Of a stretch of DNA of 64,000 bases, positions 10,933 through 62,200 are shown piece after piece. The number at the start of each line of letters is the position of its first letter. Position 1 is the stretch's first letter. Origin of the DNA: Haliotis rufescens (Eukaryota). A program made the translations under genes and the position numbers. The notes beneath the pieces were generated by a model that worked only from the letters and a program-made list of their open reading frames with translations, was not told the origin of the DNA and made no database searches. The DNA lies in NCBI RefSeq assembly GCF_023055435.1, contig NW_025964035.1, positions 868,001 to 932,000 of the forward strand, written 5' to 3'.

Positions 10933-13900
10933 TTAGAGGAGGCTAAGTAAGAATGGATCTGGTCCCATGGCATGGTTAGGATCAACCATTTGATATGTAG
11001 AATGATGTGATTCAAATCCAACGCCTATCCCTTGATTTGCACCCAACCCTACATCAGGGCCGTGAAAAGAACCCATATTAGGTGCATGAATGTCCCTCCA
11101 TGGGTTTCCAAAACCCACATCCGGGCCAGGGAACGGAGCTGCGTTTCCAAAACCCATATCAGTTGCATGTCTGTCCCTCATTTGGTGTCCCAAACCCATC
11201 TCAGCACCGTGGAACGGACCTGGGTGTCCAAATCCAACATCGGTAGCCATACCCATATCAGGGCCTTGAAGCCGACCTACGTCTCTGAAACCCGTATGAG
11301 TAGCATGGCGATCTGCCATTGGGTGACCAGAACGTGTGTCCATTCCTGCTCCTTGTCTGGAATGTAATGTATCAATAGGTCCTGTACCCATCCCAAGAGC
11401 AGCATCGGCGTGTCCTACACCTGTATCTACAACACCACCAGATGCCTTGTCTGGCCCTAAAGTCTGAAAAGGACGTCCACCCCCTAGCCTCTGAACAGCA
11501 ATTTGAATATCCTGTATGTTACTTTGACCCTGGTTAGCCGTCAGCATGTCCATGGCGGCCTTGTTCTCTGACGCAAATTGAGATCTTGAGGCAGCATCAA
11601 GTCTGAGGTTTCCACCATGCGTGTTAAGACCACTACTATGTCCCTTCTCCATTAATTTATCATTTGCACCTAGCGACTGCGTTATTCTCAGCCTACCCCC
11701 AAACCTGTCAATGTGTGGATCCCTAACGGGACTATTGATGTCCGCAGCACTGATCACTATGGGGAGTCGGAATTTAGTGAGAAGCTCCGCATCAGTAATC
11801 CGACCCCCATCTACTATGTCAGTGACATTCTGTTTACCACTGGTAAACGTAGAACCAGAACGACTATCAAGTCCTTTAGCTTTGTTTAACACGTCCCCAA
11901 CACCGCCTGAAGAACTGTTCTCTGTCAGCATGTCAGGAGACATCACTGATAAGTCTGTGTGTTGTGCATCACTGCCAAGGGCATTGTTCGACAAACTTCT
12001 ACCTTGCTCTGATTGTCTGGTGGGGTCATTTTGACCACCATCCTGTAAAGTATTCCTCAGTGGAACCGAGTCTGCATGGAGATCCTTATTAGAAACTTGG
12101 CCCATAAGCGTGTCTCTGCCACTAACACTTCCCGTGATACTGTCATTAAGACGGTTATTGTTTAATCCCAACTTGGTCACATCTCCAGTGGACTTAGTTG
12201 TTTGAGTCATATCGCTGCCTGTTCTCCCAAGTATTCCATTCTTTAGTGATGTGCCATCATGTGATAATTCCTGGGACAAAGATAATGACCCTTGAGCACT
12301 TCTGCCCATATTTGGTAAAAGGACATCCTTTGCTGGCTGCGTACTCTCTTCATTACCCGTAATTCTGTTCTGGTTTAAATGAAGATCTGTTTTACGGTGA
12401 AAGAAGTTCTTATCAGAAAGAGTCGTTCCTTGTGTCAAAGAATTGCTCCCTACTGTACCAACCTTGGGATCTTTTTGTGTGTCAAATGTCGATAAGGTCT
12501 GTTTTTCCCTCAACAGAGCATCAGGTGATTTTCCCCCGAGGCCAACAGGCGATGTCATTGCAAATTTGGCACCGTTGTTCCCGGTAAGTTTTAGATCCCT
12601 TACCTCTGCGACACCCGGTGTTTCATGGACAGAATTGATCGTGGGTCTCTTTGAAAATATTTTTGTAGTGCTACCAACAGCCGAACTCACAAATCTAGCT
12701 TGATCATTAAAATGAGAGTTCATTCTTGAAGGTGAATGCGTCCCCCATCCGCGTGTGTCTACCCGGGATATCTGTGCCATTCTACTCCTTGGGAAAGATG
12801 GCGACATACTCTGGTGGGAAAAGCTTGACATCCGGTCAGAGGACCTAGGTGAATCCGAAGACATCCTTTGGGAACTATGGTCAAATGATGAGCCAGTGCC
12901 CACAAGTTGATGTCGATCTATGGCCTGCATTGATCTACGAGAGCTACCTGACGTTTCTCCTCGCATAGCGTGAGAATTGAAGTGAGAGTTGGATCTGTCT
13001 GTCATTCTCCAGTTAGGATGTGTCATCATGTCAGAGGAATGAGACATTGTTCTAGACGAACGGGGATTCTCTGAAAATAATGATGCCTCTCTGGAAGGGT
13101 GTGACATCCTTCTGTCTGACATCAGCCCTACATCCCTGAAATCCCTTCTACCACTCTGCAACCGTGCGTTGGCAAAATCCTGGCTCAGTCCACCAGGTTG
13201 TTGGGACATACCTGAGGATACTCTTGTAGGCGTCATCTGATTTGCAGATTGTTTCCTGTCAAATGTAAATCCAGCATGATCAGAGGCAAACTGTGATTGG
13301 CGACTTGTAGCTAGCTGTGTTGCGGACTGAGACAACATTCGTTGTGTTTGACCAAGTTGACTTCCAGCAGGGTCGCCCATTAGGTGAGTACCACCTGAGG
13401 CCTGCATTGCATTAGTTCCAGTACCAGAACCTGAAATCGCTTGACTACTAGCCAGATTAGGTGTCGGAACACCATCCCTTAATATGGCTCTTTGAAACTG
13501 GTTATCAGCAGGCCTGGTCGGAGACGTTCCAAGATCAGTTGATGCCATATTTCCAGCTGAGAAGCGCGCAGTGTCTTGCAATAAGGGATTCGTACCAGTG
13601 CCGGGCATGGACTGACCATGCCCACTGGAACCTCCTAGAAAGGCTCCTGTTTGATCGGCATTAGCAAAGCCTGATTGTTGACCAGAGGAGCCTCTGAGTT
13701 GAGTGTCGGCAATAGAAGAGGATAGGTGACGAGATGACTGCTCCATTCCTGTGATGTGGTTAGTAGGATTAGTCCTGCTCAGTGGATGTTCTCGGAAGCC
13801 AGTACCCATGTCCATCTGTGACGGCGGTCCTCTGTGTGTCAGTCCCATTCTCCTCCGCTCATGCAGTGCCATCTGGTGAGATGTGTGAAGGCCACGCCCA

Positions 13901-14603
13901 CGGTCATGTGAGGATGTTGATCGAGGAGCCACATCGGCAGGGTAGGGTTCAGTTCCCATTCCACTCCGCCCTGGATAATGTCCGCCAAGACCTTGATCAA
14001 ATGCTCCAGGACCAGGGTCGTAAGGTCCAGGTCCACCCACAGACGGATCATAGGGTCCAGACCCTGCCATAGTTTGATCATAGGGCCCTGCTCCCCCGCC
14101 AAGCCTGGGATCATAAGGACCAGGTGGTCCCATACTTGGATCATAAGGACCAGCAGCTCCCATGCTTGGATCATAAGGACCGACTGGTCCCATGCTTGGA
14201 TCATAAGGACCGGATGTCCCCATACTTGGATCATAAGGACCGGGTCTTCCCATACCTGGATCATAAGGTCCGCCTCTTCCCATACTTGGATCATAAGGTC
14301 CAGCACCTCTGGCTGGATCATATGGTCCCGGACCCATGCTGCCCATGCCGCCCATTCCGGGATCTACACTGCCAACTGTACCCATCCCTGGATCGTAAGG
14401 TCCTCTGCTCCTTAGCGGATCATAAGGACCTGGACCAGCCATAGTATTGCCATAGGGGTCAACTGCTCCCATTCTAGGATCATAGGTCGGGGCCTGGTGC
14501 CTGGGGAACATATGAGAAGCAGTCATTGGTTCAGTCAGAGCCGGTGTCAGTGATGCTGGAGCCATGCCAGGCGGAGGCTGAGCCCACATACCAGTAGTAG
14601 CAT
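10933..14603 (-). CDS. Gene B terminal exon (1222 full sense codons): GPYDPSMG repeats, Ser/Arg/Met/His-rich middle, Gly/His/Phe/Met C-terminal repeats
   Basis: 3.66-kb uninterrupted ORF (10933..14589) extended to acceptor cctattgttttacag at 14604; TAA stop at 10933-10935; AATAAA ~210 nt downstream. Confidence 0.92.
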
Positions 14604-17600
14604 CTGTAAAACAATAGGGTATATCTCAAACGATATGCGTATCTTTGATTGAGTATATGTTAATATTTCAAAGAAAAACCTAGCACTGTTTGATTTGATT
14701 TTCGAACAAAAGTGTTGAAGTATTGAAACTTTTTCATCCTGCTGGACGAAATAATAGAGCAAAGAGTTAATTAGATCAATTTAACTAGTGACGCTATAAC
14801 TGATAACTACACATTATACACGTCGTGCACTTAGCTTCAAATTGATACTGATACATAGGGTTCAGGTTCATATATAACGCGGAGGTTCATACATAGAGTG
14901 GAGGTTCATACATAGAGTGGAGGTTCCTACATACAGAAGGGTTCATACATAGAGTACAGGTTCATACATAGAGTGGAGGTTCATACACAGAGTGGAGGTT
15001 CATACATAGAGTAGAGGTTCATACATAGAGCGGAGGTTCATACATAGAGTGGAGGTTCATACATAGAGTGGAGGTTCATACATAGAGTTGAGGTTCATAC
15101 ATAGAGTAGAGGTTCATACATAGAGTGGAGGTTCATACATATAGGGGAGGTTCATACATACAGAGGAGGTTCATACATGCAGTGGAGCTTCATACATAGA
15201 GCGGAGGTTCATACATAGAGCGGAGGTTCATACATAGAGCGGAGGTTCATACATAGAGCGGAGGTTCATACATAGAGTGGATGTTCATACATAGAGTGGA
15301 GGTTCATACATAGAGCGGAGGTTCATACATGGAGTGGAGGTTCACACATAGAGTGGAGGTTCACACATAGAGTGGAGGTTCATACATACAGAGGAGGTTC
15401 ATACATGGAGAGGAGGTTCATACATAGAGTGGAGGTTCATACATAGAGCGGAGGTTCATACATAGAGCGGAGGTTCATACATAGAGTGGAGGTTCACACA
15501 TAGATTTGAGGTTCATACATAGAGTGGATGATCATACATAGAGCGGATGTTCATTCATAGAGCGGGGGTTCATACATAGAGTGGAGGTTCACACATAGAG
15601 TGGAGGTTCATACATACAGAGGAGGTTCATACATGGAGTGGAGGTTCATACATAGAGCGGAGGTTCATACATAGAGCGGAGGTTCATACATAGAGCGGAG
15701 GTTCATACATAGAGTGGAGGTTCACACATAGAGTGGAGGATCATACATAGAGCGGAGGTTCATACATAGAGTGGATGTTCATACATAGAGCGGGGGTTCA
15801 TACATAGAGTGGAGGTTCATACATAGAGTGGATGTTCATACATAGAGCGGAGGTTCACACATAGAGCGGAGGTTCATACATAGAGTGGAGGTTCACACAT
15901 AGATTGGAGGTTCATACATAGAGTGGATGTTCATACATAGAGCGGGGTTCATACATAGAGTGGAGGTTCATACATAGAGCGGAGGTTCACACATAGAGCG
16001 GAGGTTCAGACATAGAGTGGATGTTCATACATAGAGCGGAGGTTCATACATAGAGCGGAGGTTCACACATAGAGTGGAGGTTCAGACATAGAGTTGATGT
16101 TCATACATAGAGCGGGGTTCATACATAGAGTGGATGTTCATACATAGAGCGGAGGTTCACACATAGAGCGGAGGTTCATACATAGAGTGGAGGTTCACAC
16201 ATAGATTGGAGGTTCATACATAGAGTGGATGTTCATACATAGAGCGGGGTTCATACATAGAGTGGAGGTTCATACATAGAGCGGAGGTTCACACATAGAG
16301 CGGAGGTTCAGACATAGAGTGGATGTTCATACATAGAGCGGAGGTTCATACATAGAGCGGAGGTTCACACATAGAGTGGAGGTTCAGACATAGAGTTGAT
16401 GTTCATACATAGAGCGGGGTTCATACATAGAGAGGATGTTCATACATAGAGCGGAGGTTCACACATAGAGCGGAGGTTCATACATAGAGTGGATGTTCAT
16501 ACATAGAGTGGAGGTTCATACATAGAGCGGAGGTTCATACATAGAGCGGAGGTTCACACATAGAGTGGAGGTTCATACATGGAGTGGAGGATCATACATA
16601 GAGTGGAGGTTCATACATAGAGTGGAGGTTCACACATAGAGCGGAGGTTCATACATAGAGTAGAGGTTCATACATAGAGTGGATGTTCATACATAGAGCG
16701 GGGGTTCATACATAGAGCGGATGTTCATACATAGAGCGGGGGTTCATACATAGAGTGGAGGTTCATACATCGAGCAGAGGTTTCTACATTGAATGTAGCT
16801 CGCAATGTGACGTTCATACACCTATTGAAGGGCGAGGTGGAAAAGCCGTACTTCGTATATTCATGATATTTTAGAATTATTCGCGTGTCAATACATACCG
16901 AAGCATGGTATCCTGCAGCCAGCTGGGGGAAATAAGAAAAATTTGGTAAACAACATATGAAATGGATCTGTATGTACATACCTAGTCCTAGGTTCACACT
17001 GATTATGTCAACACACACGTGAGATTAAAACACATGTTGCAATGTCTCGTAGTAGGAGCCGAGCATCAATCATTCCTGCTTACTTGAAGGTATGTATGGG
17101 TATGTTTGTGTGTGTGCGTGTGTGTATGTGTGTGTGTGTGTGTGTGTTTATGTGTATGCTTNNNNNNNNNNNNNNNNNNNNNNNNNNNNNNNNNNNNNNN
17201 NNNNNNNNNNNNNNNNNNNNNNNNNNNNNNNNNNNNNNNNNNNNNNNNNNNNNNNNNNNNNNNNNNNNNNNNNNNNNNNNNNNNNNNNNNNNNNNNNNNN
17301 NNNNNNNNNNNNNNNNNNNNNNNNNNNNNNNNNNNNNNNNNNNNNNNNNNNNNNNNNNNNNNNNNNNNNNNNNNNNNNNNNNNNNNNNNNNNNNNNNNNN
17401 NNNNNNNNNNNNNNNNNNNNNNNNNNNNNNNNNNNNNNNNNNNNNNNNNNNNNNNNNNNNNNNNNNNNNNNNNNNNNNNNNNNNNNNNNNNNNNNNNNNN
17501 NNNNNNNNNNNNNNNNNNNNNNNNNGTGTATCGTTTAAATTTTGCACTTAACGTAGATTTTTTTAAACCAACCACATTTGTTTGCAAGACATGCAGGATA

Positions 17601-31813: not shown

Positions 31814-34094
31814 ATGAGATGTAGATTGAGTTTATCACATCCGGCGGTTAATATCATATTCTCATAGATCAGGCTACGAGTATGCCCGTTAAGTGGCAGA
31901 AACGTTGAAGTTCAATAACATTGTCTGCTGTTTTGTCCGACATGCACGCAGGATATTCACTCACAAATATATGCACGTAACAACCATCAACGTCTTCAAC
32001 AAAACACTGATGTTGTTAACGCGCAATACAGAATTTGTTTCAGAATCTAAGATATGAAATGTATGTGTGTATCTCCTGTGCTTTATTTATTAATTACTTT
32101 GCAAATATCCAATGTGCACTGATGAAACGTTACGTTAAAACTTGGGGATCATGAAATATAAATGTTATGATCGATTGTCAGAAGTTCAGTGTAAGATCAT
32201 CTGTGACAAATGACTGACAGAGGTTGAACGATTTCAGAACCAAAAGTTATCGCCCCAACACACCCGAAACATTGCATGTGAACCATGTTATTTCTCCGTA
32301 TTGGGAATGCGTCGACTACGTGATGAACCCCTAAGGGCTATTAGCATGCCTGTAACTGGTAGAAATCAGCGAGAGGGGCCAATATGTTATCTCAGTCGGT
32401 GGTTTGCAGCCCAGTCTGGTTTCTGCAGACACAAGTTAATGATCTGCCCCGCACAGGGGGCCCAAGGTCAAACACACAAGTCCGGGATCGATTGATCAGA
32501 AACCAGGCCTTAAGAACTCGAGATCAAACAGCCAATTAAAACGCTGTTCACTAGCGCGAGGCTACCTGAGTTCTAATTACTGACCAGACGATATGCATGG
32601 GGCTTTTGTGCATGCTCGGCGACCACGTGCTGAACCACCGTTAAAAGATTCAACACATTCTCGCCAGTGGCCATGGTGTTTAGAGCGTAGTGTCGATGGT
32701 CTCGTCTAATGGTTACAGAGGGGTCCACATTCACCCTGGCCTTTCTAGACAGGCGTGTGCGTCTCTGGAACCAACGTTACGGGAAAGTCATTGTGAGACA
32801 CCATGAATGGCATTGGGTCTTTTCATTTATGAAATCATTTGCTATCTGCGAATATCCCCTATTGGCTTGGAAAGTAGATAAAATACTCGACATTTGTCTA
32901 ACTCCAAGCTCCTTTTTCAGTGTTTGTGTTTTTAATATCAGTGCATCAATTTGGAGCTCTGGAACTCGTTTAGAAAAGGAATATATATATAAATATATAT
33001 ATAATAAATATATAATAAATATATAATAAATATATAATAAATATATATATGCATCGCCAAGAGACGCAACTCTGCACAGCGAATTGCAGCACCTTCAACT
33101 ACTGGGCCACCCATGCTTCCATATGAGTCAACTGGACATATACTTTTTCCAGAGGCATTGAATGCTGTAACCTTGATGTGAGAAGTTGTTTGTCGTATGA
33201 CGGTCTTTACCAATTCAACCCTTGAAGATTCCGGGGTAGAATAGGTCTTCAGCAACCCATGCTTGCCGTAAAATGCGACTGTGCTTGTCGTATGAGGCGA
33301 CTAACGGGATCGGGTGGTCAGGCTCGCTGACTGATTGCGTAGATCAATGCTCTTGATACCAAACACTGGATTGTCTGGTCCAGACTCGATTATTTACAGA
33401 ACGCTGTCATATTGCTGGCATATTGCCGAGCGCGGCGTTAAACAACAAAACAAACCGAATACATTCTGTGAATATTATGGACAGGGTGAGGTGAGGTGAG
33501 GTGAGGTTAAATGGGGTTTAACGTCGCGTCCAAGATTATTGCACTTATATAGCGACGTGCATGTACGTGTGTGTGTTTGTTTGGCTGCTTGTATTAGTCC
33601 GGACTGATTCCGATTTATAGTGCTAGCCCACTGAGATACCATGCCGCAGTTTAACATGAATACCCAACTCAGACACAGTATACTGACTCCGAGCCGACCA
33701 GTCCTTGTTTTAGCCCCTTAATGCCGAGCGCCAGACAGGGTAACAACAAGTACCATCTTTTAACGTCTTTTGGTATGACGCGGCCGGGGATCGAATTATC
33801 AGGGCGGGGGACACAAGCAATGGGCTTCACACATTGTAACAATGTGGAGAATCGAACCCGGATCTTTGGCGTAACGAGCGAACGCTTTAAGCACTGGACT
33901 ACCCAACCGCCCCTCAACAACGGAGAAGACGCGTCTGATACTCCTTGTGTTCAGCGCATCTGTCATTCATTCACCTCCCTGTTCACAAACAACACATTGA
34001 CACAAAGAGTTTAAATTTTCTCTTTATAAACAACATGATACATGGGACATGAAGCAAGTTTGACCATCACTGGAAAGTATGTCATAAATATAAG

Positions 34095-34272
34095 TGTTAC
34101 AACCGTTAAACTCTGAAACGTGTTCATAGATAGAATTATTACAACCGTGAGAATCTGAAAAGAATTCATAGTTGCAATTGTTGCAACCGTGAGAATCTGA
34201 AAAGTATTCATAGTTGCAATTGTTACAACCGTGAGAATCTGAAAAGAATTCATAGATAGACTTGTTACAACG
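34095..34272. repeat. ~42-bp tandem repeat downstream of the gene C stop
   Basis: About four copies of acaaccgtgagaatctgaaaagaattcatag... Confidence 0.85.
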
Positions 34273-34494
34273 TGACCCTCTGGAAAGGGGGTTATGTACA
34301 TATTTGTGATATTGTTGACTCCCTGGAAAGGAGGCCATATGTAATTGGTGCATCCTTGACTATCTCGACAGTACGTCGTGCGACGTTGTAAACAATGAAC
34401 ATGCGTCTACATTCACTGTGACAATGTTATGTCTGTTGATTGATTGTACAGGCAGCGTCAACAAGGCCAGGGTGGTAGTTCTACTACCAAAGGT

Positions 34495-37400
34495 TTAGTT
34501 GTAGCAGGACGAGAACTCGTTTATGGTCGCCTCTCTCTGCATGAATTCGGGGCCTCTTGATAACATGTTCTCAATCGTGTGAACATCTCCCACTGAAACA
34601 GAGGTCATTTTAAGGGTAACGCTATTTTTCAGGGCATTATCATTTGCAGAAACCCGAGGTCTTCCATTAACTGCCCGACGAATAGCTAAAATGGATGGAA
34701 TTTTGTATCAAATAAAAAGAAACAACAATATCGGTTTTGGACTTTTTACTGCAATCAACACAAATGTCACTGACCCACTTTTACAAGTATGGAAACGTCA
34801 TAGAACAAACCAGATGACGTCACTATTTAACGTGACGTCACCTATGCCTACCCTATGACGTCACCTTACAACGGGCGTGATAATGGCCCGTCGTCAAGCC
34901 ATATGAGGGCATTATCAAGTTACAGTAGCCCGCTGATTCTTGATAACATGCGGGCGGTTTACTGATAAGTCTATCCATTTTAGCTATAATACATTACAAT
35001 TCGCTTTAATCGTGTTTGTTTGTTTGTTTGTTTGTTGTTTAACGCCGCACTCAGCAATTTTCCAGCTATACGACGGCTGTCTGTAAATAATCGAATCTGG
35101 ACCAGACAAGCAAGTGATTGACATCATGAGCATCGATGTTATGTCATTGGAACACGATGGCATGCATCAACCATGTCAGCGAGCCTGACCAACCGTTCCC
35201 ATTAGTCGCCTCTTACGGCAAGCATAATGGCCTTTTGCGGTAAGCATGGATTGCTGAAGTCCGATTCTACCCCGGATCTTCACGGGTCTCGTTCTAATCC
35301 ATTCGGTGTAGCACTTTACTTCTACTGCAACAGGGGGCACGGGTGGCCCAGTCGTCTAAGACGCCGCGATTCGCTGTGCAGAGTTGCGTCCCTTGGGCAC
35401 GCCAGAAACCTATGATTGTGGGTTCGAATCCTGGTTTCCCCCCGATTATGTTTCTAGGTTTGTCAGCACCATACCCGTGCTCGTGGGTTTCACCGAAGTT
35501 GTAAACGTCTGAGACCTGCATCACTTCTGGCTTTCCTCCCACATTAAGCTGTCACGCCGTGATATAAATGGAATAATGTTAAAAGCGGCGTTAAACCCAA
35601 CTCACTCACTCCCTCACACAACTACAACTGTATGGATGATACCTTCACGCCGTCGGCGCTCTTGTATTGTGTAGAATTACGTCAGTTTGGCGTACCAGAA
35701 TCCGATGATCACGGAAAGGAAGCACATATTCGTTATGATGCTAGTTTTGGTTTGTAAACTCTATGGTTTTACAAAGTGGTAAGCGTCTGGGTGAGTCAGG
35801 TTTTACGCCGTATTTAGGAATATTCCGGCAATATCACTGCGGGGACAAAAGAAATGGGCTTCAACATGTGGGGATTCGAACCCGGGTCTTCGGCGACACG
35901 AGCGAACGTTGTAACCACCATGTTACCCCACCGACCGGTATGCGTCTGAAACTTACTTTGAGCTAACACGTTAAGCTCATAAGCCATAATATAAATGTTC
36001 AAAGCAGCGTTAAATCCAGCTCACTCGCTCACCTTGGGCCAACCTAAAAACGTCGACGTGATTCAGCATTGTGGCATCTTACAGCGCCTTCATGTTTCAA
36101 AAGTTGTATTGTAAAGATTCTAGACAATACTCACGGTGTTGAATATGCATAATCCGATTGAACACCACGAATCCAGGCGTGTCTATCGCGGTGATGATTT
36201 CGTTGGGGATGACGATCTGGAAACGACACTCCTTGTCGGTTTCAGTCAGAGGGTTACCAAGGCAACGCTCGGCATATCGACCATCAGGATTGAAGAAATG
36301 GATCTGTGTTGATGAAAGCAACGAAACATGACTTAGTGGCCTGACGTACACAGCTCGGTGTTGGAAGTTTCAACCTATGGGGAAATACTACTACATCTTC
36401 ATCAGCCTCAGTTTCAAATAATACATGATGGTCTAAAGAAGCAGGGGGCACGGGTGGCCGAGTCGTCTAAGGCGCCGCAATTCGCTGTGCAGAGTTGCGT
36501 CCCCTGGGTACGCCAGAAACCTATGATTGTCGGGCCGGGGATCGAATTATCAGGGCGGGGGACACAAGCAATGGGCTTCACACATTGTACCAATGTGGGG
36601 AATCGAACCCGGATCTTCTGCGGAACGAGCGAACGCTTTAAGCACTGGACTACCCAACCGCCCCTCAACAACGGAGAAGACGCGTCTGAAACTCCTTGTG
36701 TTCAGCGCATCTGTCATTCATTCACCTCCCGGGGGCACGGGTGGCCCAGTCGTCTAAGGCGCCGCGATTCGCTGTGCAGAGTTGCGTCCCCTGGGTACGC
36801 CAGAAACCTATGATACTGGGTTCGAATCCCGGTTCGCCCCGATTATGTTTCTAGGTTTGTCAGCACCATACCCGTGCTCGTGGGTTTCACCGAAGTGGTA
36901 AACGTCTGAGACCTGCATCACTTCTGGATTTCCTCACATTAAGCTGACACGCCGTGATATAACTGGAATATTGTTAAAAGCGGCGTTAAACCAAACTCAC
37001 TCAATCACTCACTAAAGAAGCAAACGCGTGGGACTTCCCAAAGTTCTCATGGTGACGTGATGTCATGAAGCGTGAATGACGTCATTTGATGACGCAATCT
37101 TATAATATGTGTGGTATATGGAGCCATGTTAATGCAATAGTTTAAAAAGACAGCTTATTGACAACACTGCATCAGTAAGTACCTATTAATTGATGTTTCC
37201 CTCAATCTTTCTGCCCAGTATGGTAACTGTAGATGGCAGATGGACATAATCAGGGAGTTTCAGTCTTGAAAGAAGTAAGGATATGGACTTCTCCGTCAAT
37301 GCAGATGCTGTATTGATTGATTCGCGATTGACTGATTTGACGAGTGCGTCCGACTACTGCTGATTCCGCGTATCGTTCTGTCATGGATATAACATTTGCT

Positions 37401-40400
37401 TGACATCTAACTGCTATTCACATATAACATTTGGATACGCGTTAAGTCACCGCAGAGATGCTCTTACAGCACGCATGCACGCACGCACTCACGCAAGCAT
37501 GCATGCACGCACGCACGCACGCACCCCTCTTACCGTGGTGTCTCCCTTGCCAGGCGTAAATGTAAGGCTTGTCCTGACCGTAGCCACCCCCTACCAGGTA
37601 AGGATGAGAACCCTGATCTTACCATGACCATCCCCCACCCCACCCCACCCCACCCCTACCACGTGAGGGTGAGAGGGTTGTTCTTACCGTGACCATCCCC
37701 GACCCCGCCCCTACCACGTGAGGGTGAGAGGGTTCTTCTTACCGTGATCATCCCCCCACCCCAACCCTACCACGTGAGGGTGAGAGGGTCGTTCTTACCG
37801 TGACCACCCCCACCCCCGCCCCTCCCACGTGAGGGTGAGAGGGTTGATCTTACCGTGACCATCCCCCACCCCAACTACGTGAGGGTGAGAGGGTTGTTCT
37901 TACCGTGACCATCCCCCACCCCACCCCTACCACGTGAGGGTGAGAGGGTTGTTCTTACCGTGACCATCCCCCGTCCCGTCTCTACCACGTGAGTGTGAGA
38001 CGGCTGTTCTTACCGTGCCCCACTCCTACCAAGTGAGGCTGAGGGGGCTGTTCTTACCGTGGCACGTCCCCAATACCACGTGAGGGTGAGAGGGTTTTTC
38101 TTGCCGTGCCCTCTCCCTACCACCTGAGGGTGAGAGGGCTGTTCTTACCGTGGCGCGTCCCCCCTGCCAGGTGAGGGTGCGGTCGAAGGGGAAGCTGTTC
38201 CATGGCACACAGTCACCTCCGTTGAGGACCACCTGGTATGTGGCTGCCACGGGGGTGATAACTCGACGGCGTCTGGACATTGAAAAAGATTAATATTTCT
38301 TATGTTTCCTATTCAAAATTACCAATGATATAAGCACTCACTGCAAGTCCTTCGTCTGTCTGCAGTTACCTTCAAGTTGTGGTTATTTTCAAAAGGATAA
38401 ACTGTGCTTCCCGCCAGGCATAAGGGAGGTAACTCCAAACTTACAAATATGCATTCCATTAGCAATTTATTAGAAACAAACCGAATCGTTAAATTTGAAT
38501 TTAGTCGAAATTTAGTCGAAACGTGTTGATGCTAGTACAAAAACCGTCCCGTTGAGGCCTTCTGACACTCACTTGTCACCAATCCTCTCTAACAATATCA
38601 ACACAAAGTTCTTTGGACAAGTACATCTGGACATATGTTTTGATCTACATCTGAAACCAAATAACTGGATCATGTGAATATTTTGATTCCTTCATTTTCA
38701 AAGTCGATTCCTACACTCGTCCCAATTACGATCTTTGGTTTATAGACACCAAACCAGAGCTTATGGGTTCCATCAATGTGGCAAACGTCTACGATAAGTT
38801 ACAAACGCGATTTTAATCCTGAATTAAGCCNNNNNNNNNNNNNNNNNNNNNNNNNNNNNNNNNNNNNNNNNNNNNNNNNNNNNNNNNNNNNNNNNNNNNN
38901 NNNNNNNNNNNNNNNNNNNNNNNNNNNNNNNNNNNNNNNNNNNNNNNNNNNNNNNNNNNNNNNNNNNNNNNNNNNNNNNNNNNNNNNNNNNNNNNNNNNN
39001 NNNNNACCATCTTCGTTGACTGCCACTGAAGTGCTTCCAAGAAACGACCGTAGTTGCTTGGTCGAAGGCTGTAAATTTGCACTAATTCTTTTATTTGCTC
39101 CAACGATAGCTGTGCTTTCCTGCAAAAGTCGAACCACTTTATAGTAGTCATATCAGCCCCCATAATCAATATCCAACATGAAACAATACACAGACATGTG
39201 TCATCCGTTTCAAAAATATTGTTTAGTTCATAAATCCTTTCATTTGGTTAAATAAATGTCTTCAGCATAGCGGTAACGAAGTCCCAGGTACGTTTGTTTC
39301 AGGTGAGGTAAAATGGGGTTTAACGTCGCGTCCAAGATTATTGCACTTATATAGCGACGTGCATGTACGTGTGTGTGTTTGTGTGGCTGCTTGTACTAGT
39401 CCGGACTGATGCCTATTTATAGTGCTAGCTCACTGAGATACAATGCCGCAGTTTAACATGAGCGCCGAGCGCCAGACAGGGTAACAACAAGTACCATCTT
39501 TTAACGTCTTTAGGTATGACGCGGTCCGGGATCGAACCCCGGACCTTCCGTTCTCCGGGCGGACGCTCTACCACTAGACCACGGAGGCAGTCACATTTGT
39601 TTCAGGGTAGTGACCTTCCTTCTGCATACATAAGTACATAAGTATATTTTGTATAAATTGTCAGTTTTCAACTATATTTATGTTTAAACGTACTGAGTTT
39701 CAGCTGGTGTCGTGCCCTGTTGTTTGTTCGTTGCCTCTGTCACAGACGTCGTCTCGACACCCTTTGTATCCACTGAAACACGACAAGAAGGAGGTATTAT
39801 TACTGAATCTAGCCATCCGACTTGTCACCATCCAACCAATCACCGTCTTGTGAAACTATATAAGTTGTTTGTAAGAGCATCCTGACGTCATAATATTTGG
39901 TTTGACGTCACTTGTTTGTAACGTAACAATTGGTCAAGATAGATCTAATTGACACAAAGTAAGGTCTTGTGACGTGTTGGGTACAATGTGTGAAGCCCAT
40001 TTCTGGTGTCCCCCTCCGTGATATTGCTGGAATATTGCTAAAAGCGGCGTAAAACCATACTCACTCACTCACTCTTGTGACGTGTAATGCTACATTCGTC
40101 ACAAATGGTGTGGGAGATTAAAATGTAAGTCAGAAAATAGTCCACACATATATCTGCTTCCCCCTCATGGAGAGCATTATTTGAAAGTTGGTACTATATG
40201 TGAGGATACAAGTAATGTTTAAGGGGAGGTAGATTTTTCACCTTTGTTCACTTGTGCGCCAGCAGATGGGGATGAATCTACTGGAGGTGTTTGTGCAGAG
40301 CTAGCACTTGCCCCAGCTGTAGGTTTGACACCGGCATTGATTCCTGTTTCTGACGCCGTACTGGCGCTTGTCCCTGTTGCTGACGCCGTACTGGCATTTG

Positions 40401-43400
40401 TTACTGTAGTTGACGATGTGATGACGCCTGTTCCTGTTGCTGACGTAGTGCTGGCGCTTGTTGCTGTTGCTGACGACTTGATGGCGCTTGTTCCTGTCGC
40501 AGACGCCGAACTGGCGCTTGTTGCAGTTGCTGACGATTTGATGGCGCCTGTTCCTGTCGCAGACGCCGAACTGGCGCTTGTTGCAGTTGCTGACGATGTG
40601 ATGGCGTTTGTCCCTGTCGCAGACGCCGAACTGGCGCTTGTTGGTGTTGCTGACGATGTGATGGCGTTTGTTCCTGTTGCTGACGATGTGATCGCGTTTG
40701 TTCCGGTTGCTGACGAAGTGATGGCACTGGTTCCTGCCAGTGGTGTGCTAGCACCTATTCCTGTTCCTGACGATGTGATGGCGTTTGTTCCTGTTTGTGA
40801 CGAGGTGATGGAGCTTGTTCCTGTTGCTGACGATGTGATGGCGTTTGTTCCTCTTGCTGATGAAGTGATGGCACTGGCTCCTGTCAGTGATGTGCTAGCA
40901 CCTATTCCTGTGGTTGCTGAGGTGCCTGCACTTGTTCCAGTTGTTGCAGTTGCCGCTATTGCGGGGGAACCAGAGCTCTTCCAGGTAAGAGATGTAGGCG
41001 CCACTGTTGTGCTTGGAGAACTAACACTTATTTTAGTACTTGGTGCAGAAGATGAAACAGTACTAGCAACGACTGTGGTTGAGGTACTTGTGATGGGTGT
41101 AGTGGAAGCGACGGAAGCTATTGTGGTTGAAGATCCAGTGACAGGCTCAGATGAGGAAGCGTTAACTGTCCAAGGAGCAGGTGATGCATTCACAACGGCC
41201 GCGAATAAGGTATCGGCGCTGGAGGCAGCTGTGGATGAAGTAGAATATGTTGAATCTACAGTTGTAGGGAACGAAACACAACTGCCTCCAACAGAGGCCG
41301 TGAAACTATGACTAGTTCCGACTGTATAAGGACCAACGTTACCTGTAGCTAATTAAAGGGCACTAGTTGTGGAATAAGAGGTGAAATGGGGTTTAACGTG
41401 GCGTTCAAAATTATTGCACTTATCTCGCGACGTGCATGCACGTGTGTCTGGCTGCTTGTACTAGTCCGGACAAATGCCGGATTCATTGAGATATCATGCC
41501 GAAGGATAAACATGGATAACCTACTCAGACACGGTAGACTTAAGCCTTTGTTTTATCGCCTTCCTGCCGAGCGCCAGACAGGGTGACAACAAGTACTACC
41601 TTTTAGCGTCTTTTGTTACGACGCGGCAAGGGGATAGAACCACCCTGGGCGGACGCTCTATCCACTATATTGTATGGAACCGTTGACCTTCAGCTCTTTG
41701 GACATGTGGAAGACTATGTTTTGTTTTGTTTTTCGTTTGTTTAACGCCGCTAGCTATAAGGCCGCCCGAACATAACCCAATGATTGATTGAGTGAGTGAG
41801 TATAGTTTTACGCCGTTTTAGCAATATTCCAGCAATATCACGGAGGGGAACACCAGAAATAGGCTTCGTCGTCGTGACAAGCGAACACTTTAACCACTAG
41901 GCAACCCCACCGCCCTTCCAATGATTGACATCATGAGCATTGATCTACGAAATTCGGATACGATGACATGCGTCAAGACTGACCACCCGATCCCGTTAGT
42001 CGTCTCTTAGCCAGAGAGGAAATAAGGAATCAGTTGATTACATTACTAGTACTGTAGTGCAGTAAACTACGGTTATAACGAACTCAAAGGGACCACTAAT
42101 TTTAGTTCGTTGTAGCCGTGGTTCGTTATATGCATATATACAGCATAACTACAGCAAATAGTCGGGACAAAAAAGTAAGTTCGTTATATCCGTCAGTTCG
42201 TTAGAAGCGTGTTCGTTATAACCGTAGTTTACTGTACTATTATCTGTGCCTTTACCATTTGCAGCTGCACTATTTTTATCTGAGGATAGTAAACCTGATG
42301 CTGCACTGGCATTTGATGAAGCTGTTGATGTCGTCGAAGCTGCAATTGTGGTTACAGAAGAATTCGAGGATGCTTTGGGATCGGTGACAGACGAAGACTG
42401 CATGATACCGATGGTCGCACTGGTGGAGGACGAACTGGCGTTTGCACTAGATGACGGGCCAGCATTTGTACCGGTTGTTGATGAAGAGTTGGCACCAGTG
42501 GTGTTTGTTGGTGAAGGAGCACTGGCATTTCGTGCCGATGCCGAATTAACTGGGAGTGAGGCAACTGCAGCTGTAGCCGAGGCACTAGCATCTACAGCAG
42601 CTGTAGAAGAAGAGGAGTTACCTGTGGTCGATTTATCAGTCGAGACCTTGGTTCCAGGGGTCGATGATAAGATGGACGCAATTGTGCTCGGCGACAGAGC
42701 CATCTTTGAAATAGTGGGCACAAGAGATGCCCCGAGTGTGTTGGAGGAGGAGGAGGAGGAGGACTCGCTGGTCCCTGTAGTTGCTGCATCTTTCCCTGCA
42801 CTTTCTGTTGCTGCTGCGGACGCCGCCGAGGCCTTATCAGAACTGACCTCATTAGTTCCACCGTCCTTAATAAAAAATAAGGGGTTTAAACATTTTACAA
42901 CGATTTTTATTTTACATCCATGACAAAGAAATTATTTCTCATCGAATATGAGTTTCTTGCTCAGAAGTTGTTTGATCAAGGTTACAACATTCAAGGCCTC
43001 AGTTAAGCTTTCAAAAAGATTTATGGGAGACGTGTGGGGGACATTTCCAAATTTGACGCATCAGTGACAAAAATGATGTCCGATGCAATTCCCTATTTTG
43101 ACTTGTACCATATGTTCCAATGTTATTTCAGGTGAACAGTTGACTTGCATTTGCATGTGTTTGTGACGGGTGCCATGGTGGGACAGGATACGGTCACCTT
43201 TTCACCAACACCTGGTATCATTACTATTTGATAGTGATTTATAAACATATGCTCAAGATATAGTCGGAATTGTACAATCCACTCTACTTTATGCAGAGAT
43301 GCCGATTGGATATGGAAAGGGTTTGTCTCTTTTTTGATATAAATGGTTTGGTAGAACATATCTTCATATCTATATAGAACAGGTCTTCTGATTTCTGTTA

Positions 43401-46400
43401 ATACGAAAGGACAAATGGTCATTTCGAGTTATGACCTTAGTCGCATACAGGCCTCTCATCATAAACACATGCAGCTGAGATAACGTTAGTGAGTGAGTGA
43501 GTGAGTGAGTTGGGTTTAACGCCGCTTTTAACAGTATTCAAGTTATATCACGGCGTGTCAGCTTAATGTGGGAGGAAAGCCCGAAGTGATGCAGGTCTCA
43601 GACGTTTACTACTTCGGTGAAACCCACGAGCACGGGTATGGTGCTGACAGACCTAGAAACATAACCGGGGCGAACCGGGATTCGAACCCACAATCATAGG
43701 TTTCTGGCGTGACCTTGTACATCTGAAGGTTCCGAAGTTTGATATCAATGACCCTGTAAAACCTCATCAATATTACCAAGTATGATAGAGCCACCTGACT
43801 ATTACGGTCACCTGACTATTACGGTCAGGGCGGATATTTGCCCACTGTTGAAACATGCAAATTGACACTTGTAATCAGACTTACCACGAGACTTCGTTTT
43901 ACGACGTGTACTGAAATTGAAAATTCAGAAAACATGTCAACACTTGTCACAGGGGACGGAGGAATGTGCGAATGTCTTGCTAAATACATTGTTTGCTAGG
44001 CATTTCTTACAAGTTGACGGATGACAACGTTGACGAAAGATGTATGGATAACATCTTCTTTAATATACTGTAACAGCAACTTTTCGGTACAGACGCGTAT
44101 ACCGTTGTCAATCAACACTGGATATTGAAGAAGGTACAGAATTATATATTGTGGATAAAAGATTATCTGATTCAGTAATAGATGGTCAATAAACCTCGTC
44201 CTAATAAATGGAGGATCAAATTCAATTTTTTGTTTAAAAAATGGATTGTTTCTCAGATAGATCTACTCAGGGGCGGTCGGGTAGCCTTGTGGTTAAAGGG
44301 TTCGCTCCTCACGCCGAAGACCCGTGTTCGATTCACGAAATGGGTACAATATGTGAAGCCCATTTCTGGTTTCCCCTGCCGTGATATTGCTGGCATATTG
44401 CTATATGCATATTACTAATAGAAAGCTGGTCTAAACTGTATTATATATTTTATATTTGTGAATATACTTTGCACATTCCGTTTTCGTATTTGTCATTCTT
44501 GACACTTTTCATGACCGACGTGAAAACCAGGGTTATAATTGGTTTTCAGTAACCAATGCTTTTAGTAGGAGGTGACCAACGGGATCGGTTAGTCAGACTC
44601 GCTGACTTGGTTAGTGCATGTCATCGTATCCCTGATGCGTAGATTTATGCTAGTGGTGTCAATCACTGGATTGTCTGGTCAAGACTCGTCATATGCTGAA
44701 ATGTTTTCGTGAAGGCACTGGGGACCAACCTTTTGGTGTTTGCCGATGTAGTTTTGATGGGGGTGGATCATAGATCCCTGAACGGAAGAGCGAACATTTT
44801 GTTTCAAAAGACATTGCTTATTTTTTAAAAAAGCTGTGCCAAATACTTTTTCCAATTATTTCCAAACCCCCCTTAAACCAAATACCCATTGGTACCAGAC
44901 AAACAATGTGTGGCTATACTTACATCCATCAATGTGAGCGACTGTCACGGCAACTGCACACAGAGAACATACCATCAATGGAAACATCTTCTGACCAATC
45001 TCATTCAAATCAGATCTTAGTTTTCGCTACCGCTAAACAAAGATCTGAGGACATCCCATTAAGGGTCACGTCAGAGCGACCTTTCATCCAACCAATCAGA
45101 GCGTCGCTTACCAGATCATGAAAGTGACTGTCGGAATGTGTTTTCCAATCATGCAACCACGAAATATTTAACACGGGGTATTCCGAACGACAGTTACGGG
45201 TTTTATGATTATATCCGTACAATCTAGGCCATATATAAGCCATTCCAGAATGTTCTTCTTATCAGTTTTAATTTTTTTTAATCGAGAATATGTCAAAATA
45301 TGTTTCAAAGCGTAGTCGCCAGTTTGAAACTAGTGTCGTAAAGCTCGAGAAAGCTGATTGGCTATTGTCGATTTCTTGTCAGTCATTAAATTGGTCGGTC
45401 AAAAATCGCGAAAGGTCGTTCTGACGTGATCCGTAATGGGATGTCCTCAGATCTTTGTTTAGCGATAGCGAAAACTAAGATCTGATTTTAATGAGATTGT
45501 CTTTTGACAAGACACATTCACAAAATAACAACAACCATTATGTTCCGTTAAAAGGTTCTTTCGAAATAACGACAAAAACCGTCCCAGATGCATATTCACT
45601 GACTTCACGTTTGTCCAGATATTAAATATATGTTTTAATGGAATAGACATAAATGTGAACACGTCAAAATATTGTTTGGGGTAAGTAAGAGACTAAAACA
45701 TTTACGTGACACCCTGCAAAAAATATAAGCTATAACACCTATTGCCTTCTCATTAATCAATGGTTTAAAAATATTTTTGATATCTCAATAAAGTATTTCT
45801 AAGTGTAGTTCCAGATCTCTAGTTCACCGAGTCTTGTTTGTCAGGAATACTACCATCTACATCTGCCGACATGCAACATTTAGTGGGTTACACTCTTGAA
45901 CCATGTCAGGGGACGAGCTTCAGAATGACGTCATATGTCTGTGACATCATGTTCTCAAAGTCATATTCTAGACTCATCAGACCCAGACATAATTATAACT
46001 ATTCAGCATCTACAATAGTTATAAGAATAAACTGCCTGGCAAAAGAAAGTATATATTTGAAACTTAGATTTAACCTAACATCAGATGCTGGATGAGAAGC
46101 AACTTTCTCAAACTTAATGATGACAAAACTGAGCTCTTGATCATTAGCTCTTAACAGATGCAGTCCAAAGTACGATTTCCTGGTTTGAAAATTGGGGAGT
46201 GTACGGTTGAGCAAAACTCTTGTGCCCGAAATCTAGGCGTGATCATTGACTCAACACTCAGTCTGGATAACCATGTAAGCAGTATGTGCAAAGACAGCTT
46301 ACTTTCACATCAGGAACATCAGACAGATAGCAAGATACGTAGACACAGCATCAGTCAAGTGCCTAGTCCATGCATTTGTAACATCAAGACTTGACTATTG

Positions 46401-59264: not shown

Positions 59265-62200
59265 TCACCAACCTGAAAGAAAAATACATAAACGAAATCA
59301 GTACCATTCAAGAAAAGGATTAAAAAGATTGAACAGTGACATAAGACAAAGTGAGTTTGGCTTAACGCCGCTATGTATTTCATGACGGCATGTCTGCTTG
59401 GAGGGAACAACTCGAAGTGATGCAGATCTTAGACGTTGACCACGCACGAGTAAGCTTGGATGATTCGAATCCCAGATCATTGGTTTGTGGAACACCTAAT
59501 GAACGCAGCTCCTTGAGCATATATATTAACATATATATGTATACACCCTTGTTACCTTATTCCAAATCATGGCATATAGTCTTATATAAAGATGACACAA
59601 ATGGTGTAACATAATTTAGCATTGTAATGGCGTTAGTAGATGGACAGACGGATTCAACATCTATGATGTTATAAGTGGGAAGACTTTTTTATTGGGGGAT
59701 CTACGTTCATATGTTCTTAAAAACGACAATAAATATGTATCTACACTTGTCAACAAACTGTTCTAACACTGCACCGACCTCTTTGAGCCATGGGTTGCTG
59801 TTGGGGGTTTGGCAGCTGTATTCCGAGCGTTCTGAAGAAGGCCGATATGGCGTCGTTCACGAACTGGGTTCTCTGTGGTGCTGGCATTCTTAGAAGTGCT
59901 TCGGCGAGATGGGGGGCTATTTCGGGATCCTTTGAAAAAATAAACATAATAAGAAATTCTGTATAAAATAGCAGCCTTGCTGTCTTCTTAGCCGAAGCCT
60001 TATAATATATGGTTATTATAACGGACACGGTGGGTTCTTTAACGAGCAGGCGAACATGTGAATAATTGGTCTGCAGGAGCGATGGTGTAGGATATGGTTC
60101 CCGTTTTTGGGAACACCTGGAGGTCATCACTGATTTTCAGTGATCCAGTCACATAGAGAATCTCATCCGAGTGTCTTTTGATATCAAATATATCAACACG
60201 AGTTGATAAAAGTGGAAAAATTCCGAGGCTTGCCGAGGATATTTGCAAATTTTATCAACGAGTGTTATCTTGGGGTTAGTGTTAACCCGGGGTTATCTTA
60301 ATGAGGTGAGTGGATGTGTCCTGGGTCCGGACCAACAGTGTTTCATTGTGTATTTACATGATCTCAAAAACCTCAATGAACCACTCACCTGGCTTTGTGG
60401 CATGTTAGCCATATTGGCTCTGAGTCCTTGTTTCTGTGATGGTTGCTGTGGGTGTTGCTGTTGGGGAGGCTGAGGCTGAGGCTGGGGATTTGGAGGCTGT
60501 GGGTAAGGTGATGGACCTTGGTTCTGAGGCTGGTTGGGGAAATGATTATGTTGAGTTGGCATTTGGGAGATCTGTTGGTTGAATGGCAACTGTGTTGGCT
60601 GTGGCTGGGATGGAGGTTGTGGTTGTGGTTGTTGTGATTGATGTTGCTGTGGCTGTTGTGGCTGATGCTGGGGCGGTGTAATCTGGAAGGGATCCTTTCC
60701 CCACGGGGCAGCGTTCTGTGTGCTGGGATCGGGGAATGGCATCGGGGCTCTAGCTGGGGGGGAAGCGGGGGATCCCCATCTGTTTCCCCTTGGAGGTTGT
60801 GGAGAGGGAGGGACATAGAGATGCCCGCCGTTGGGCCCGTTGCCTTGTGGTCTTCCATTTCCCATACCGCTCGGTTTCTGACCTCCCACGGGATTTTGCA
60901 GTAGGTTTACAATACTTCCCATAACATTTTGCATATTGTTCCCAGCTTTGTTAGGATTTCCCATACCGTTGTTAGGATTTCCCATACCGTTGTTAGGATT
61001 TCCCATACCGTTGTTAGGATTTCCCATACCACCCATTGGGTTCCCCATGCCATTCATTGGGTTCCCCATGCCATTCATGGGATTTCCCATTCCACCCATC
61101 GGATTTCCCATTCCGCCCATCGGGTTGCCCATACCACCCATCGGGTTGCCCATACCGCCCATACCACCCATCGGGTTGCCCATACCGCCCATCGGGTTTC
61201 CCATACCACCCATCATGTTTCCTAGAGCAGCCAGAGGATTTGCCATTGGTCCCATAGGATTCACCCCGCCGTTCATCGCTGCAAACATGCCCATCATGCC
61301 AATCTTACGAGGTCCCCGAAGAGCTGTAAACAAATAAATATGAGTTAGACAAACGTAGTTGTAACTAGTGAGTGAGTGAGTAGTTTTGTTTCACTCCGCT
61401 TGGAATCTTTTTTCAGTTACTTCATTGCGTGGCAGTTTTAACTTGTACCACATGTTCCCGTGTTATTTTTCAGTTGACTTGCCGTTGCATGTGTTTGTGA
61501 CGAGCACCACCAGTGAGACAGGATACACTCACCTTTTCGCGAACACCTGGTATCATTACTATTTGATAGTGATCCATAAGCACATGCTCATGTTCATGAA
61601 AAAGTCGGAATCGTACAATCAACAGATTTATGCAGAGATTTCTATTGCATATGGAAAGGGATTTGGCGCTTTATTCCAACGAGATTCACTTTTGTGAAAC
61701 ACAAACTTTGGTACAATGTTGCTACAAAACGGACCCGGGATTCAAACCCGCGACCACTGCACAGATAATTAGGGCCTTAGACGATTGAGCTAACCTTGCC
61801 TATTTGAATATGAATCATTACTGTATTTCTATTTCAGTGAGTGAGTGAGTGAGTATGGTTTTACGCCGCTTTTAGCAATATTCCAGCAATATCACGGCGG
61901 GGGACACCAGAAATGAGTTTCACACATTGTACCCATGTCGGGAATCGAACCCGGGTCTTCGGCGTGACGAGCGAACGCTTTAACCACTAGTCTACCCGAC
62001 CGCCCCTTCTATTTCAGATTATAAAATTAACGAAAGAAAGCACGTCCATACTTACGATCACAAGCAATATTACAGCCGGCACCTGAAAGAAACAATAAAT
62101 AATCATAATCATAGTCAGAGGAAGCGTATGTAACTCAGACAACTTCAAATGAAGTTAAAGAACACCCGATTAATTCACTTTAATATGATTACTACATATT

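What the first reader, a model, noticed from the sequence alone, without database searches (positions are those of the whole stretch)
34495..39119. Unrecognised ~210-aa globular domain with 7 Cys on the end of a mucin-like stalk (gene C)
Seen in sequence: six exons chain through mixed phases (2,0,2,2,0,1) without a stop to give a normal-complexity sequence (CRSKHMSRCTCP, YQVVLNGGDCVPW, IHFFNPDG, ECRFQIVIP) ending SSCYN*. I cannot assign it to vWA, chitin-binding, C-type lectin, C1q or another family I know. Inference: a beta-rich binding or polymerisation domain displayed on a ~600-aa O-glycosylated tether. An odd Cys count could allow intermolecular bonding.
Basis: partly seen in the sequence, partly recalled or inferred. 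Interest (0 to 1): 0.7.

Follow-up and report, generated by a model that had tools for sequence, protein, structure and literature searches.

The report
Abalone mucin-like protein, dead-enzyme cupin cap
An abalone gene joins a predicted secretion signal and a long serine/threonine-rich stalk to a heavily altered copy of a known small enzyme domain (the DUF985 cupin); the copy has lost the two residues the yeast enzyme needs, so it likely no longer works as an enzyme and likely pairs the chains up in mucus or matrix instead.

Summary
The gene is real and spliced, but the domain is not unknown and does not have 7 cysteines. The domain is 173 aa with 4 Cys. It is a degenerate Cupin_5/DUF985 (yeast Cff1-like) domain. 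One exon hits PDB 3LOI (E 1.8e-4). The spliced domain is 27% identical to the genome's own ordinary DUF985 protein (E 1e-12) and scores 16.3 bits on a bacterial profile, against 5.4 for the best shuffle. Its last three introns have the same phases as that paralogue's, with exons of 124/169/98 against 124/163/98 nt. The equivalents of Cff1 E44 and H96, both needed for activity, are lost. The full model has nine exons and 761 aa: predicted signal peptide, 559-aa Ser/Thr/Ala stalk, cupin, no anchor. Best reading: a duplicated housekeeping cupin recruited as a non-catalytic, likely dimerising cap on a secreted mucin-like protein. That role is untested. I found no such architecture in nine paper searches or in the scan's earlier notes.

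The parts
44924..44987 (-). Exon 1 coding part: ATG and predicted signal peptide (aa 1-21)
   Evidence: Most hydrophobic 19-aa window of the protein (KD 2.08). Its last 5 nt are seen in loose ends, and it is the only upstream TGGAT|GT site in the window. No signal-peptide predictor was run.
43885..43910 (-). 26-nt micro-exon (aa 22-30, holds a KR dibasic site)
   Evidence: Loose ends of X3 and X7 match the model 30 of 30 letters; X5 matches with a few differences
42256..42865 (-). Stalk exon 1 (Ser/Thr/Ala-rich)
   Evidence: Contig pieces; indels in other runs are 27, 3 and net 63 nt, all multiples of 3 (the 63 is my arithmetic from table 8)
40242..41228 (-). Stalk exon 2 with tandem TGTNAITSSA-type repeats; acceptor at 41228, not 41342
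   Evidence: Contigs X1 record 5 and X3 record 15 pass from 42256 straight to 41228; joint 40242/39772 in 4 of 4 runs
39694..39772 (-). Last stalk/linker exon
   Evidence: Joints on both sides in 4 of 4 runs
38991..39119 (-). Cupin exon 1 (129 nt, phase 2-2); the HxEGG motif is degenerate (PSNYGRF)
38573..38650 (-).
   Evidence: Skipped in 4 of 4 runs; adding it lowers the profile score from 16.3 to 10.5 bits
38149..38272 (-). Cupin exon 2 (124 nt, phase 2-0); WH motif is now WN, SDE is now FDR
   Evidence: same length and phases as exon 2 of the paralogue
36135..36303 (-). Cupin exon 3 (169 nt, phase 0-1), the best-kept part
   Evidence: phmmer hit to 3LOI/3LZZ, E 1.8e-4; joints in 4 of 4 runs
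34495..34592 (-). Cupin exon 4 to the stop codon (98 nt)
   Evidence: Joint 34592/36135 in 4 of 4 runs; same length as the paralogue's last coding exon
34226..34494 (-). 3' UTR as far as contigs reach
   Evidence: Contig pieces of X1 and X3 end at 34226; none of four polyA hexamers was found in 34494-34150

Best explanation
This spliced nine-exon abalone gene encodes a 761-aa protein with a predicted signal peptide, a 559-aa Ser/Thr/Ala stalk and a C-terminal degenerate DUF985 (Cupin_5) domain that lacks the residues yeast Cff1 needs, so it is likely a non-catalytic cap that likely pairs chains in mucus or extracellular matrix. Shown: exon chain, domain homology, shared intron pattern with the genome's ordinary DUF985 gene, loss of the E44 and H96 equivalents. 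Inferred: origin by duplication of that gene and fusion to a signal-plus-stalk gene; secretion; heavy O-glycosylation of the stalk; loss of catalysis. Least certain: that the cupin keeps the family's dimer habit and so joins two bottle-brush chains end to end, with two new cysteines stabilising the fold outside the cell.
For: Splicing. Homology: 3LOI hit; blastp to paralogue P0003 27% over 122 aa, E 1e-12; profile of 9 bacterial DUF985 proteins gives 16.3 bits, best of 1000 shuffles 5.4, reversed sequence -0.6. Paralogue G000:C594 has exons of 124/163/98 nt with intron phases 2, 0, 1 (my arithmetic) against 124/169/98 and 2, 0, 1 here. The best pairwise scores are to abalone DUF985 proteins (47.7 and 43.8 bits; best bacterial 31.7). 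Yeast E44 and H96 map to paralogue E20 and H65 and here to a non-acidic residue and Asn657; only 6 of 19 near-invariant columns are kept, mostly Gly, Leu and Gln. E44 and H96 are each needed for MHF production (PMC8092285; PMC13267403 section 9). The three YML079-like structures tabulated are metal-free dimers (PMC2684688 Table 1). Stalk: 45.8% Ser+Thr, no Cys, 10 N-glycan sequons, no anchor. Neighbouring ORFs over about 260 kb are also low-complexity.
Against: The whole domain could not be folded or run against Pfam, and the dimer interface was not examined. The one-exon model was poor (pLDDT 59) and matched nothing. Tissue is unknown. The domain sits on a very long branch, so its surface may have changed too much to keep the dimer. 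The alignment is uncertain by one residue in the first motif and ambiguous around the family's PGF motif. Loss of E44 alone is tolerated in ordinary animal members (Ser in P0004 and in 3LOI), so animal DUF985 chemistry may differ from Cff1's. The stalk has only 4% Pro and the protein has no vWD or cystine-knot domain, so it is not a classical gel-forming mucin.
Confidence: 0.5

Rival explanations
1. The dead cupin is a binding module (lectin-like, or a decoy for a sugar, nucleotide or furanone) carried on a mucin-like stalk, where it captures small molecules or microbial glycans at an epithelial surface.
For: The family has a pocket for a nucleotide and a sugar (PMC8092285 Discussion); 3LZZ binds GDP (PMC11594714). 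Pseudo-enzymes often keep binding (general knowledge). A secreted fungal member acts outside the cell (SsYCP1, PMC8704077).
Against: Most polar pocket residues are replaced, not only the catalytic ones: H18, E20, R46, T50, H65, E71, W117. A ligand, if any, would probably be a new one.
Confidence: 0.25
2. The domain is a passive folded end-cap or a relic: it protects the stalk from exoproteases or aids secretion, and has no partner.
For: Very long branch (4.8 changes per column); loss of most family motifs.
Against: The frame is intact over four exons with the last three exon lengths nearly unchanged, and the domain exons differ at 0-4 positions among four runs. No dN/dS could be computed.
Confidence: 0.15
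3. The domain is an active extracellular enzyme with a rebuilt active site, for example an epimerase or isomerase acting on secreted sugars.
For: Asp662 and probably Glu617 are kept, and Arg and Tyr replace pocket residues; cupins change chemistry readily (PMC2684688).
Against: Both residues shown by mutation to be needed are lost; no metal-binding His cluster is evident in the sequence.
Confidence: 0.07
4. One reading: a new domain family with an unpaired Cys that forms intermolecular disulfides.
For: The extra exon is in frame with good splice signals and could be a rare cassette, giving 7 Cys.
Against: Skipped in 4 of 4 runs; clear DUF985 homology; 4 Cys, two of them aligned to Cys of the paralogue.
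Confidence: 0.03

Closest known systems
Cupin_5 / DUF985 / YML079-like family (Pfam PF06172): yeast Cff1p (YML079W, PDB 1XE7), 3LOI/3LZZ (recalled as amphioxus BbDUF985; one search lists 3LZZ as DUF985 with GDP), Atu3615 1ZNP, SO0799 1YUD
   Same: Detectable homology along most of the domain; same size (173 against 154-203 aa); HF..DG...LG...Q.V.P core kept.
   Different: HxEGG, WH, DE and PGF motifs degenerate; E44 and H96 equivalents lost; fused behind a predicted signal peptide and a 559-aa stalk, whereas the solved members are small stand-alone proteins.
The genome's own ordinary DUF985 gene (G000:C594, about 52.405-52.412 Mb; matches P0003, named Haliotis rufescens by its source)
   Same: 27% identity; same three intron phases and near-identical exon lengths; two shared Cys.
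   Different: The paralogue is 168 aa, has no stalk, passes Pfam at 124.5 bits and keeps E20 and H65.
SsYCP1 of Sclerotinia sclerotiorum (PMC8704077, passages read)
   Same: A DUF985 protein that gained a signal peptide and is secreted; described there as newly evolved.
   Different: A fungal effector; the passages read mention no mucin-like stalk. Independent origin. Its active-site state was not checked here.
Secreted mucin-like proteins with a terminal globular domain (general knowledge)
   Same: Signal peptide, long Ser/Thr-rich low-complexity region, small C-terminal folded domain.
   Different: No vWD, CysD, cystine-knot, SEA or transmembrane part; low Pro; the terminal domain derives from an intracellular enzyme family.

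Membership tests
Cupin_5/DUF985 (PF06172) | Significant homology to family members over the domain | tested here: met
   3LOI E 1.8e-4; P0003 E 1e-12; bacterial profile 16.3 bits against shuffle maximum 5.4
Cupin_5/DUF985 (PF06172) | Passes Pfam's curated cut-off of 25 bits | not testable with these tools
   The spliced domain could not be scanned. Single exons gave 0 of 5, the family search of the genome did not list this locus, and home-made profiles gave 16.3 and 21.7 bits, so it probably falls below the cut-off.
Cupin_5/DUF985 (PF06172) | Shared gene structure with an accepted member | tested here: met
   Intron phases 2, 0, 1 and exon lengths 124/169/98 against 124/163/98
Cupin_5/DUF985 (PF06172) | Jelly-roll cupin fold | tested here: inconclusive
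   Only one 56-aa exon was folded: mostly beta strands, pLDDT 59, no PDB match at E <= 0.001
Cupin_5/DUF985 (PF06172) | Homodimer | not tested
   Family members are dimers; not examined for this domain
Cff1-type MHF synthases | Glu at the E44 position (HxEGG) | tested here: not met
   No acidic residue in the motif (PSNYGRF) in either alignment register
Cff1-type MHF synthases | His at the H96 position | tested here: not met
   Asn657
Gel-forming or membrane mucins | Long Ser/Thr-rich region behind a signal peptide | tested here: met
   559 aa, 45.8% Ser+Thr, but only 4.1% Pro; signal peptide judged by hydrophobicity only
Gel-forming or membrane mucins | vWD/CysD/cystine-knot or SEA plus transmembrane parts | tested here: not met
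   Only 4 Cys after the signal peptide, no hydrophobic 19-mer beyond it above KD 1.42
Gel-forming or membrane mucins | Dense O-glycosylation | not testable with these tools
   Inferred from composition only

The most novel reading that the evidence does not exclude
Abalone turned a duplicate of the Cff1-type enzyme, whose yeast and acorn-worm homologues make the AI-2 mimic MHF, into a secreted, stalk-borne, catalytically dead binder that soaks up or presents AI-2/MHF-like furanones or their sugar precursors in mucus. That would be an animal quorum-sensing decoy acting on Vibrio at the body surface.
Probability: 0.08. Interest if true: 0.8.

Novelty: new variant of a known kind. Interest (0 to 1): 0.42.

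Why it matters
It is a traceable case of an intracellular housekeeping enzyme domain being duplicated, stripped of its catalytic residues and recruited as the end domain of a secreted mucin-like protein, with the intron pattern still showing the parent gene. Single-exon Pfam scans miss it. I saw no report of an animal secreted or mucin-fused DUF985 protein in the searches run. Because the parent family makes a mimic of the bacterial signal AI-2, the pair (intact paralogue and dead secreted copy) gives a simple test of whether molluscs use this family at the host-microbe surface. If the domain only dimerises the chains, the interest is modest: one more lineage-specific building block of mollusc mucus or matrix.

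Tried and rejected
Pfam on five single exons: 0 of 5. Homologue search with cupin exon 3 among longer proteins: 0 of 26 candidates at E <= 1; with the stalk ORF: none at E <= 1e-10 among 7989. Search of 1.84 billion representatives: one hit, a bacterial-looking repeat protein sharing a CLGNP word, rejected as chance. So I cannot say whether this gene is annotated in public databases; records from the window's own genome may be left out of such searches. The Atlas held no entry for the exon; the paralogue gave only DUF985 clusters and nothing once that family was skipped. Own-genome searches with four domain exons found one true copy each; weak extra hits (L034, L035, L037) held stops and were rejected, as was L004. 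No second cupin was found in the window or 100 kb on each side. Metagenome scan: one 15-residue chance match; genome-contig scan with P0002: none. Kringle hits to exon 2 (E 0.005, two short pieces) rejected: no kringle Cys pattern. Exon 1 of the domain: no PDB hit. One-exon AlphaFold model and Foldseek: uninformative. The tree cannot place the domain, long branch (P0005 left out as partial). Ependymin, ZP-N and lipocalin were considered from memory and dropped, untested, once DUF985 fitted. No run is on record as RNA. No transcript ending at 40219 or 39684 appeared in the shown tables, which were cut and drop rare variants. Papers on the YML079w structure were not held. Paper searches: domain peptides 0 papers; DUF985 6; CFF1/cupin/MHF 15; cupin+Haliotis 4, none relevant by title; cupin+shell matrix protein+mollusc 0; Cupin_5/PF06172/YML079-like 20, none on an animal secreted form by title or abstract start; abalone mucus proteome 14, none relevant by title; BbDUF985/YML079w 29; pseudoenzyme+mucin+secreted+gastropod 0. 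No supplements were read; abalone proteome supplements could list this protein.
Full report
Observation. Four public runs held as contigs (one study, two organism labels; RNA status is the tool's guess) were laid on 33800-46000. In 4 of 4, contigs join 40242 to 39772, 39694 to 39119, the first domain exon to 38272, 38149 to 36303, and 36135 to 34592. One contig runs from the stalk to the 3' UTR. The exon 38650-38573 with three cysteines is skipped in all four and has intron-level depth. The genome's own copy of the masked stretch shows that the first domain exon runs to 38991 and ends at a GT donor before a GAGT microsatellite, which gives a clean phase-2 join. The domain is therefore four exons, 173 aa, 4 Cys. 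The skipped segment is about what chance gives: 1 found against about 0.5 expected in these introns.

The whole gene. A second lay on 42300-42960 (three RNA-like runs from three studies and three organism labels, and one unspliced run) gave loose ends that match a 26-nt micro-exon at 43910-43885 and the last five bases of an exon ending at 44924. Two of the three match the model 30 of 30 letters. That exon begins with an ATG at 44987 and encodes the most hydrophobic segment of the protein, which I read as a signal peptide; no predictor was available. The nine-exon model is open for 761 codons and all eight introns are GT..AG. The stalk (aa 30-588) is 45.8% Ser+Thr, 65% Ser+Thr+Ala and 4% Pro, has no Cys, and carries ten N-glycan sequons. 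There is no transmembrane segment or hydrophobic tail. Length differences in the stalk of other runs are 27, 3 and net 63 nt, all keeping the frame.

What the domain is. Pfam found nothing on single exons, but exon 36303-36136 hit PDB 3LOI/3LZZ at E 1.8e-4, and 3LZZ is listed as a GDP-bound DUF985 cupin (PMC11594714, one passage). The genome holds an ordinary Cupin_5 gene on another contig. Its exons match protein P0003, named Haliotis rufescens by its source, which is my basis for calling this an abalone. The spliced domain aligns to P0003 at 27% over 122 aa (E 1e-12). Independently of sequence scores, the last three introns have phases 2, 0, 1 in both genes, and the last three exons are 124/169/98 nt here and 124/163/98 nt in the paralogue. 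This points to duplication of the abalone gene followed by fusion to a signal-plus-stalk gene. A tree could not place the domain because its branch is very long. Each of four domain exons tested is single-copy in the genome.

State of the active site. In yeast Cff1, E44 and H96 are each needed to make MHF, a mimic of the bacterial signal AI-2 (PMC8092285, passages and Discussion; PMC13267403, abstract and section 9). They map to E20 and H65 of the paralogue. Here the HxEGG motif reads PSNYGRF and the WH motif reads WN. Of 19 columns that are near-invariant in 11 family members (up to paralogue position 117), 6 are kept; the register in the first motif is uncertain by one residue, so one more Glu may be kept. 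The family's PGF motif is lost or displaced, depending on the alignment. A caveat against over-reading: two ordinary animal members also have Ser for E44 (P0004, 3LOI), though they keep both histidines. Two of the four cysteines align to cysteines of the paralogue; the other two are new.

How it most likely works. Shown: exon chain, homology, residue loss. Inferred: secretion, O-glycosylation into an extended brush, and a folded but non-catalytic cupin at the C-terminus. The three YML079-like structures tabulated in PMC2684688 are metal-free dimers (Table 1 passage), so the simplest retained property is self-association, which would join two glycosylated chains end to end in mucus or matrix (0.5). 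The gene lies among other long low-complexity ORFs; the eight scanned have no Pfam match. This fits a cluster of secreted matrix proteins but was not tested. Tissue is unknown, and the whole domain was not folded; the one-exon model was uninformative.

Comparison and novelty. It works like neither Cff1 (both tested residues fail) nor a classical mucin (no vWD, cystine-knot, SEA or anchor). It is a divergent descendant of the DUF985 family, probably below Pfam's cut-off. The nearest precedent for secretion is the fungal SsYCP1 (PMC8704077, passages). Nine paper searches and four look-ups in the scan's notes showed no animal secreted or mucin-fused DUF985 protein; subscription journals and supplements were not searched, and protein searches could not show whether the gene is already annotated. 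The amphioxus identity of 3LOI and the status of Vibrio harveyi as an abalone pathogen are recalled, not from calls.

Noticed in passing
window 10933-14625 (-) and 60293-61390 (-); L038, L042, L043, L044, L047, L053: About 260 kb around the gene hold many long low-complexity ORFs (GPYDP repeats, MGNPMGG repeats, P/Q-rich, T/A-rich, a 1358-aa T/P/S ORF); the eight ORFs scanned have no Pfam match. It looks like a cluster of secreted matrix or mucus protein genes.
   Followed up: partly
L051:2154-3677 (-), G000:C257 about 964-966 kb: A 507-aa single open frame of normal complexity with a signal-like stretch and a possible beta-propeller-like C-terminal half (my impression); no Pfam match.
   Followed up: partly
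P0004 (named Haliotis asinina) and PDB 3LOI: These ordinary animal DUF985 proteins have Ser in place of the Glu equivalent to Cff1 E44, while P0002 and P0003 keep Glu: a natural test of what E44 does in animals.
   Followed up: no
G000:C594:52411920-52412239: The end of the last exon of the ordinary DUF985 gene is tandemly repeated several times downstream of its stop codon.
   Followed up: no
window 40219-40241 and 39684-39693: Both stalk exons run into a stop codon a few codons past their donors, so intron retention would give a stalk-only protein; no such contig was shown.
   Followed up: partly
window 41229-41342: An upstream in-frame AG at 41342 is not used in the two contigs that cross this junction; they use 41228.
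   Followed up: yes
L017 (NZ_AP025318.1): In Fulvitalea axinellae the DUF985 gene lies next to an L-fucose permease gene, in keeping with a sugar-related role of the family.
   Followed up: no
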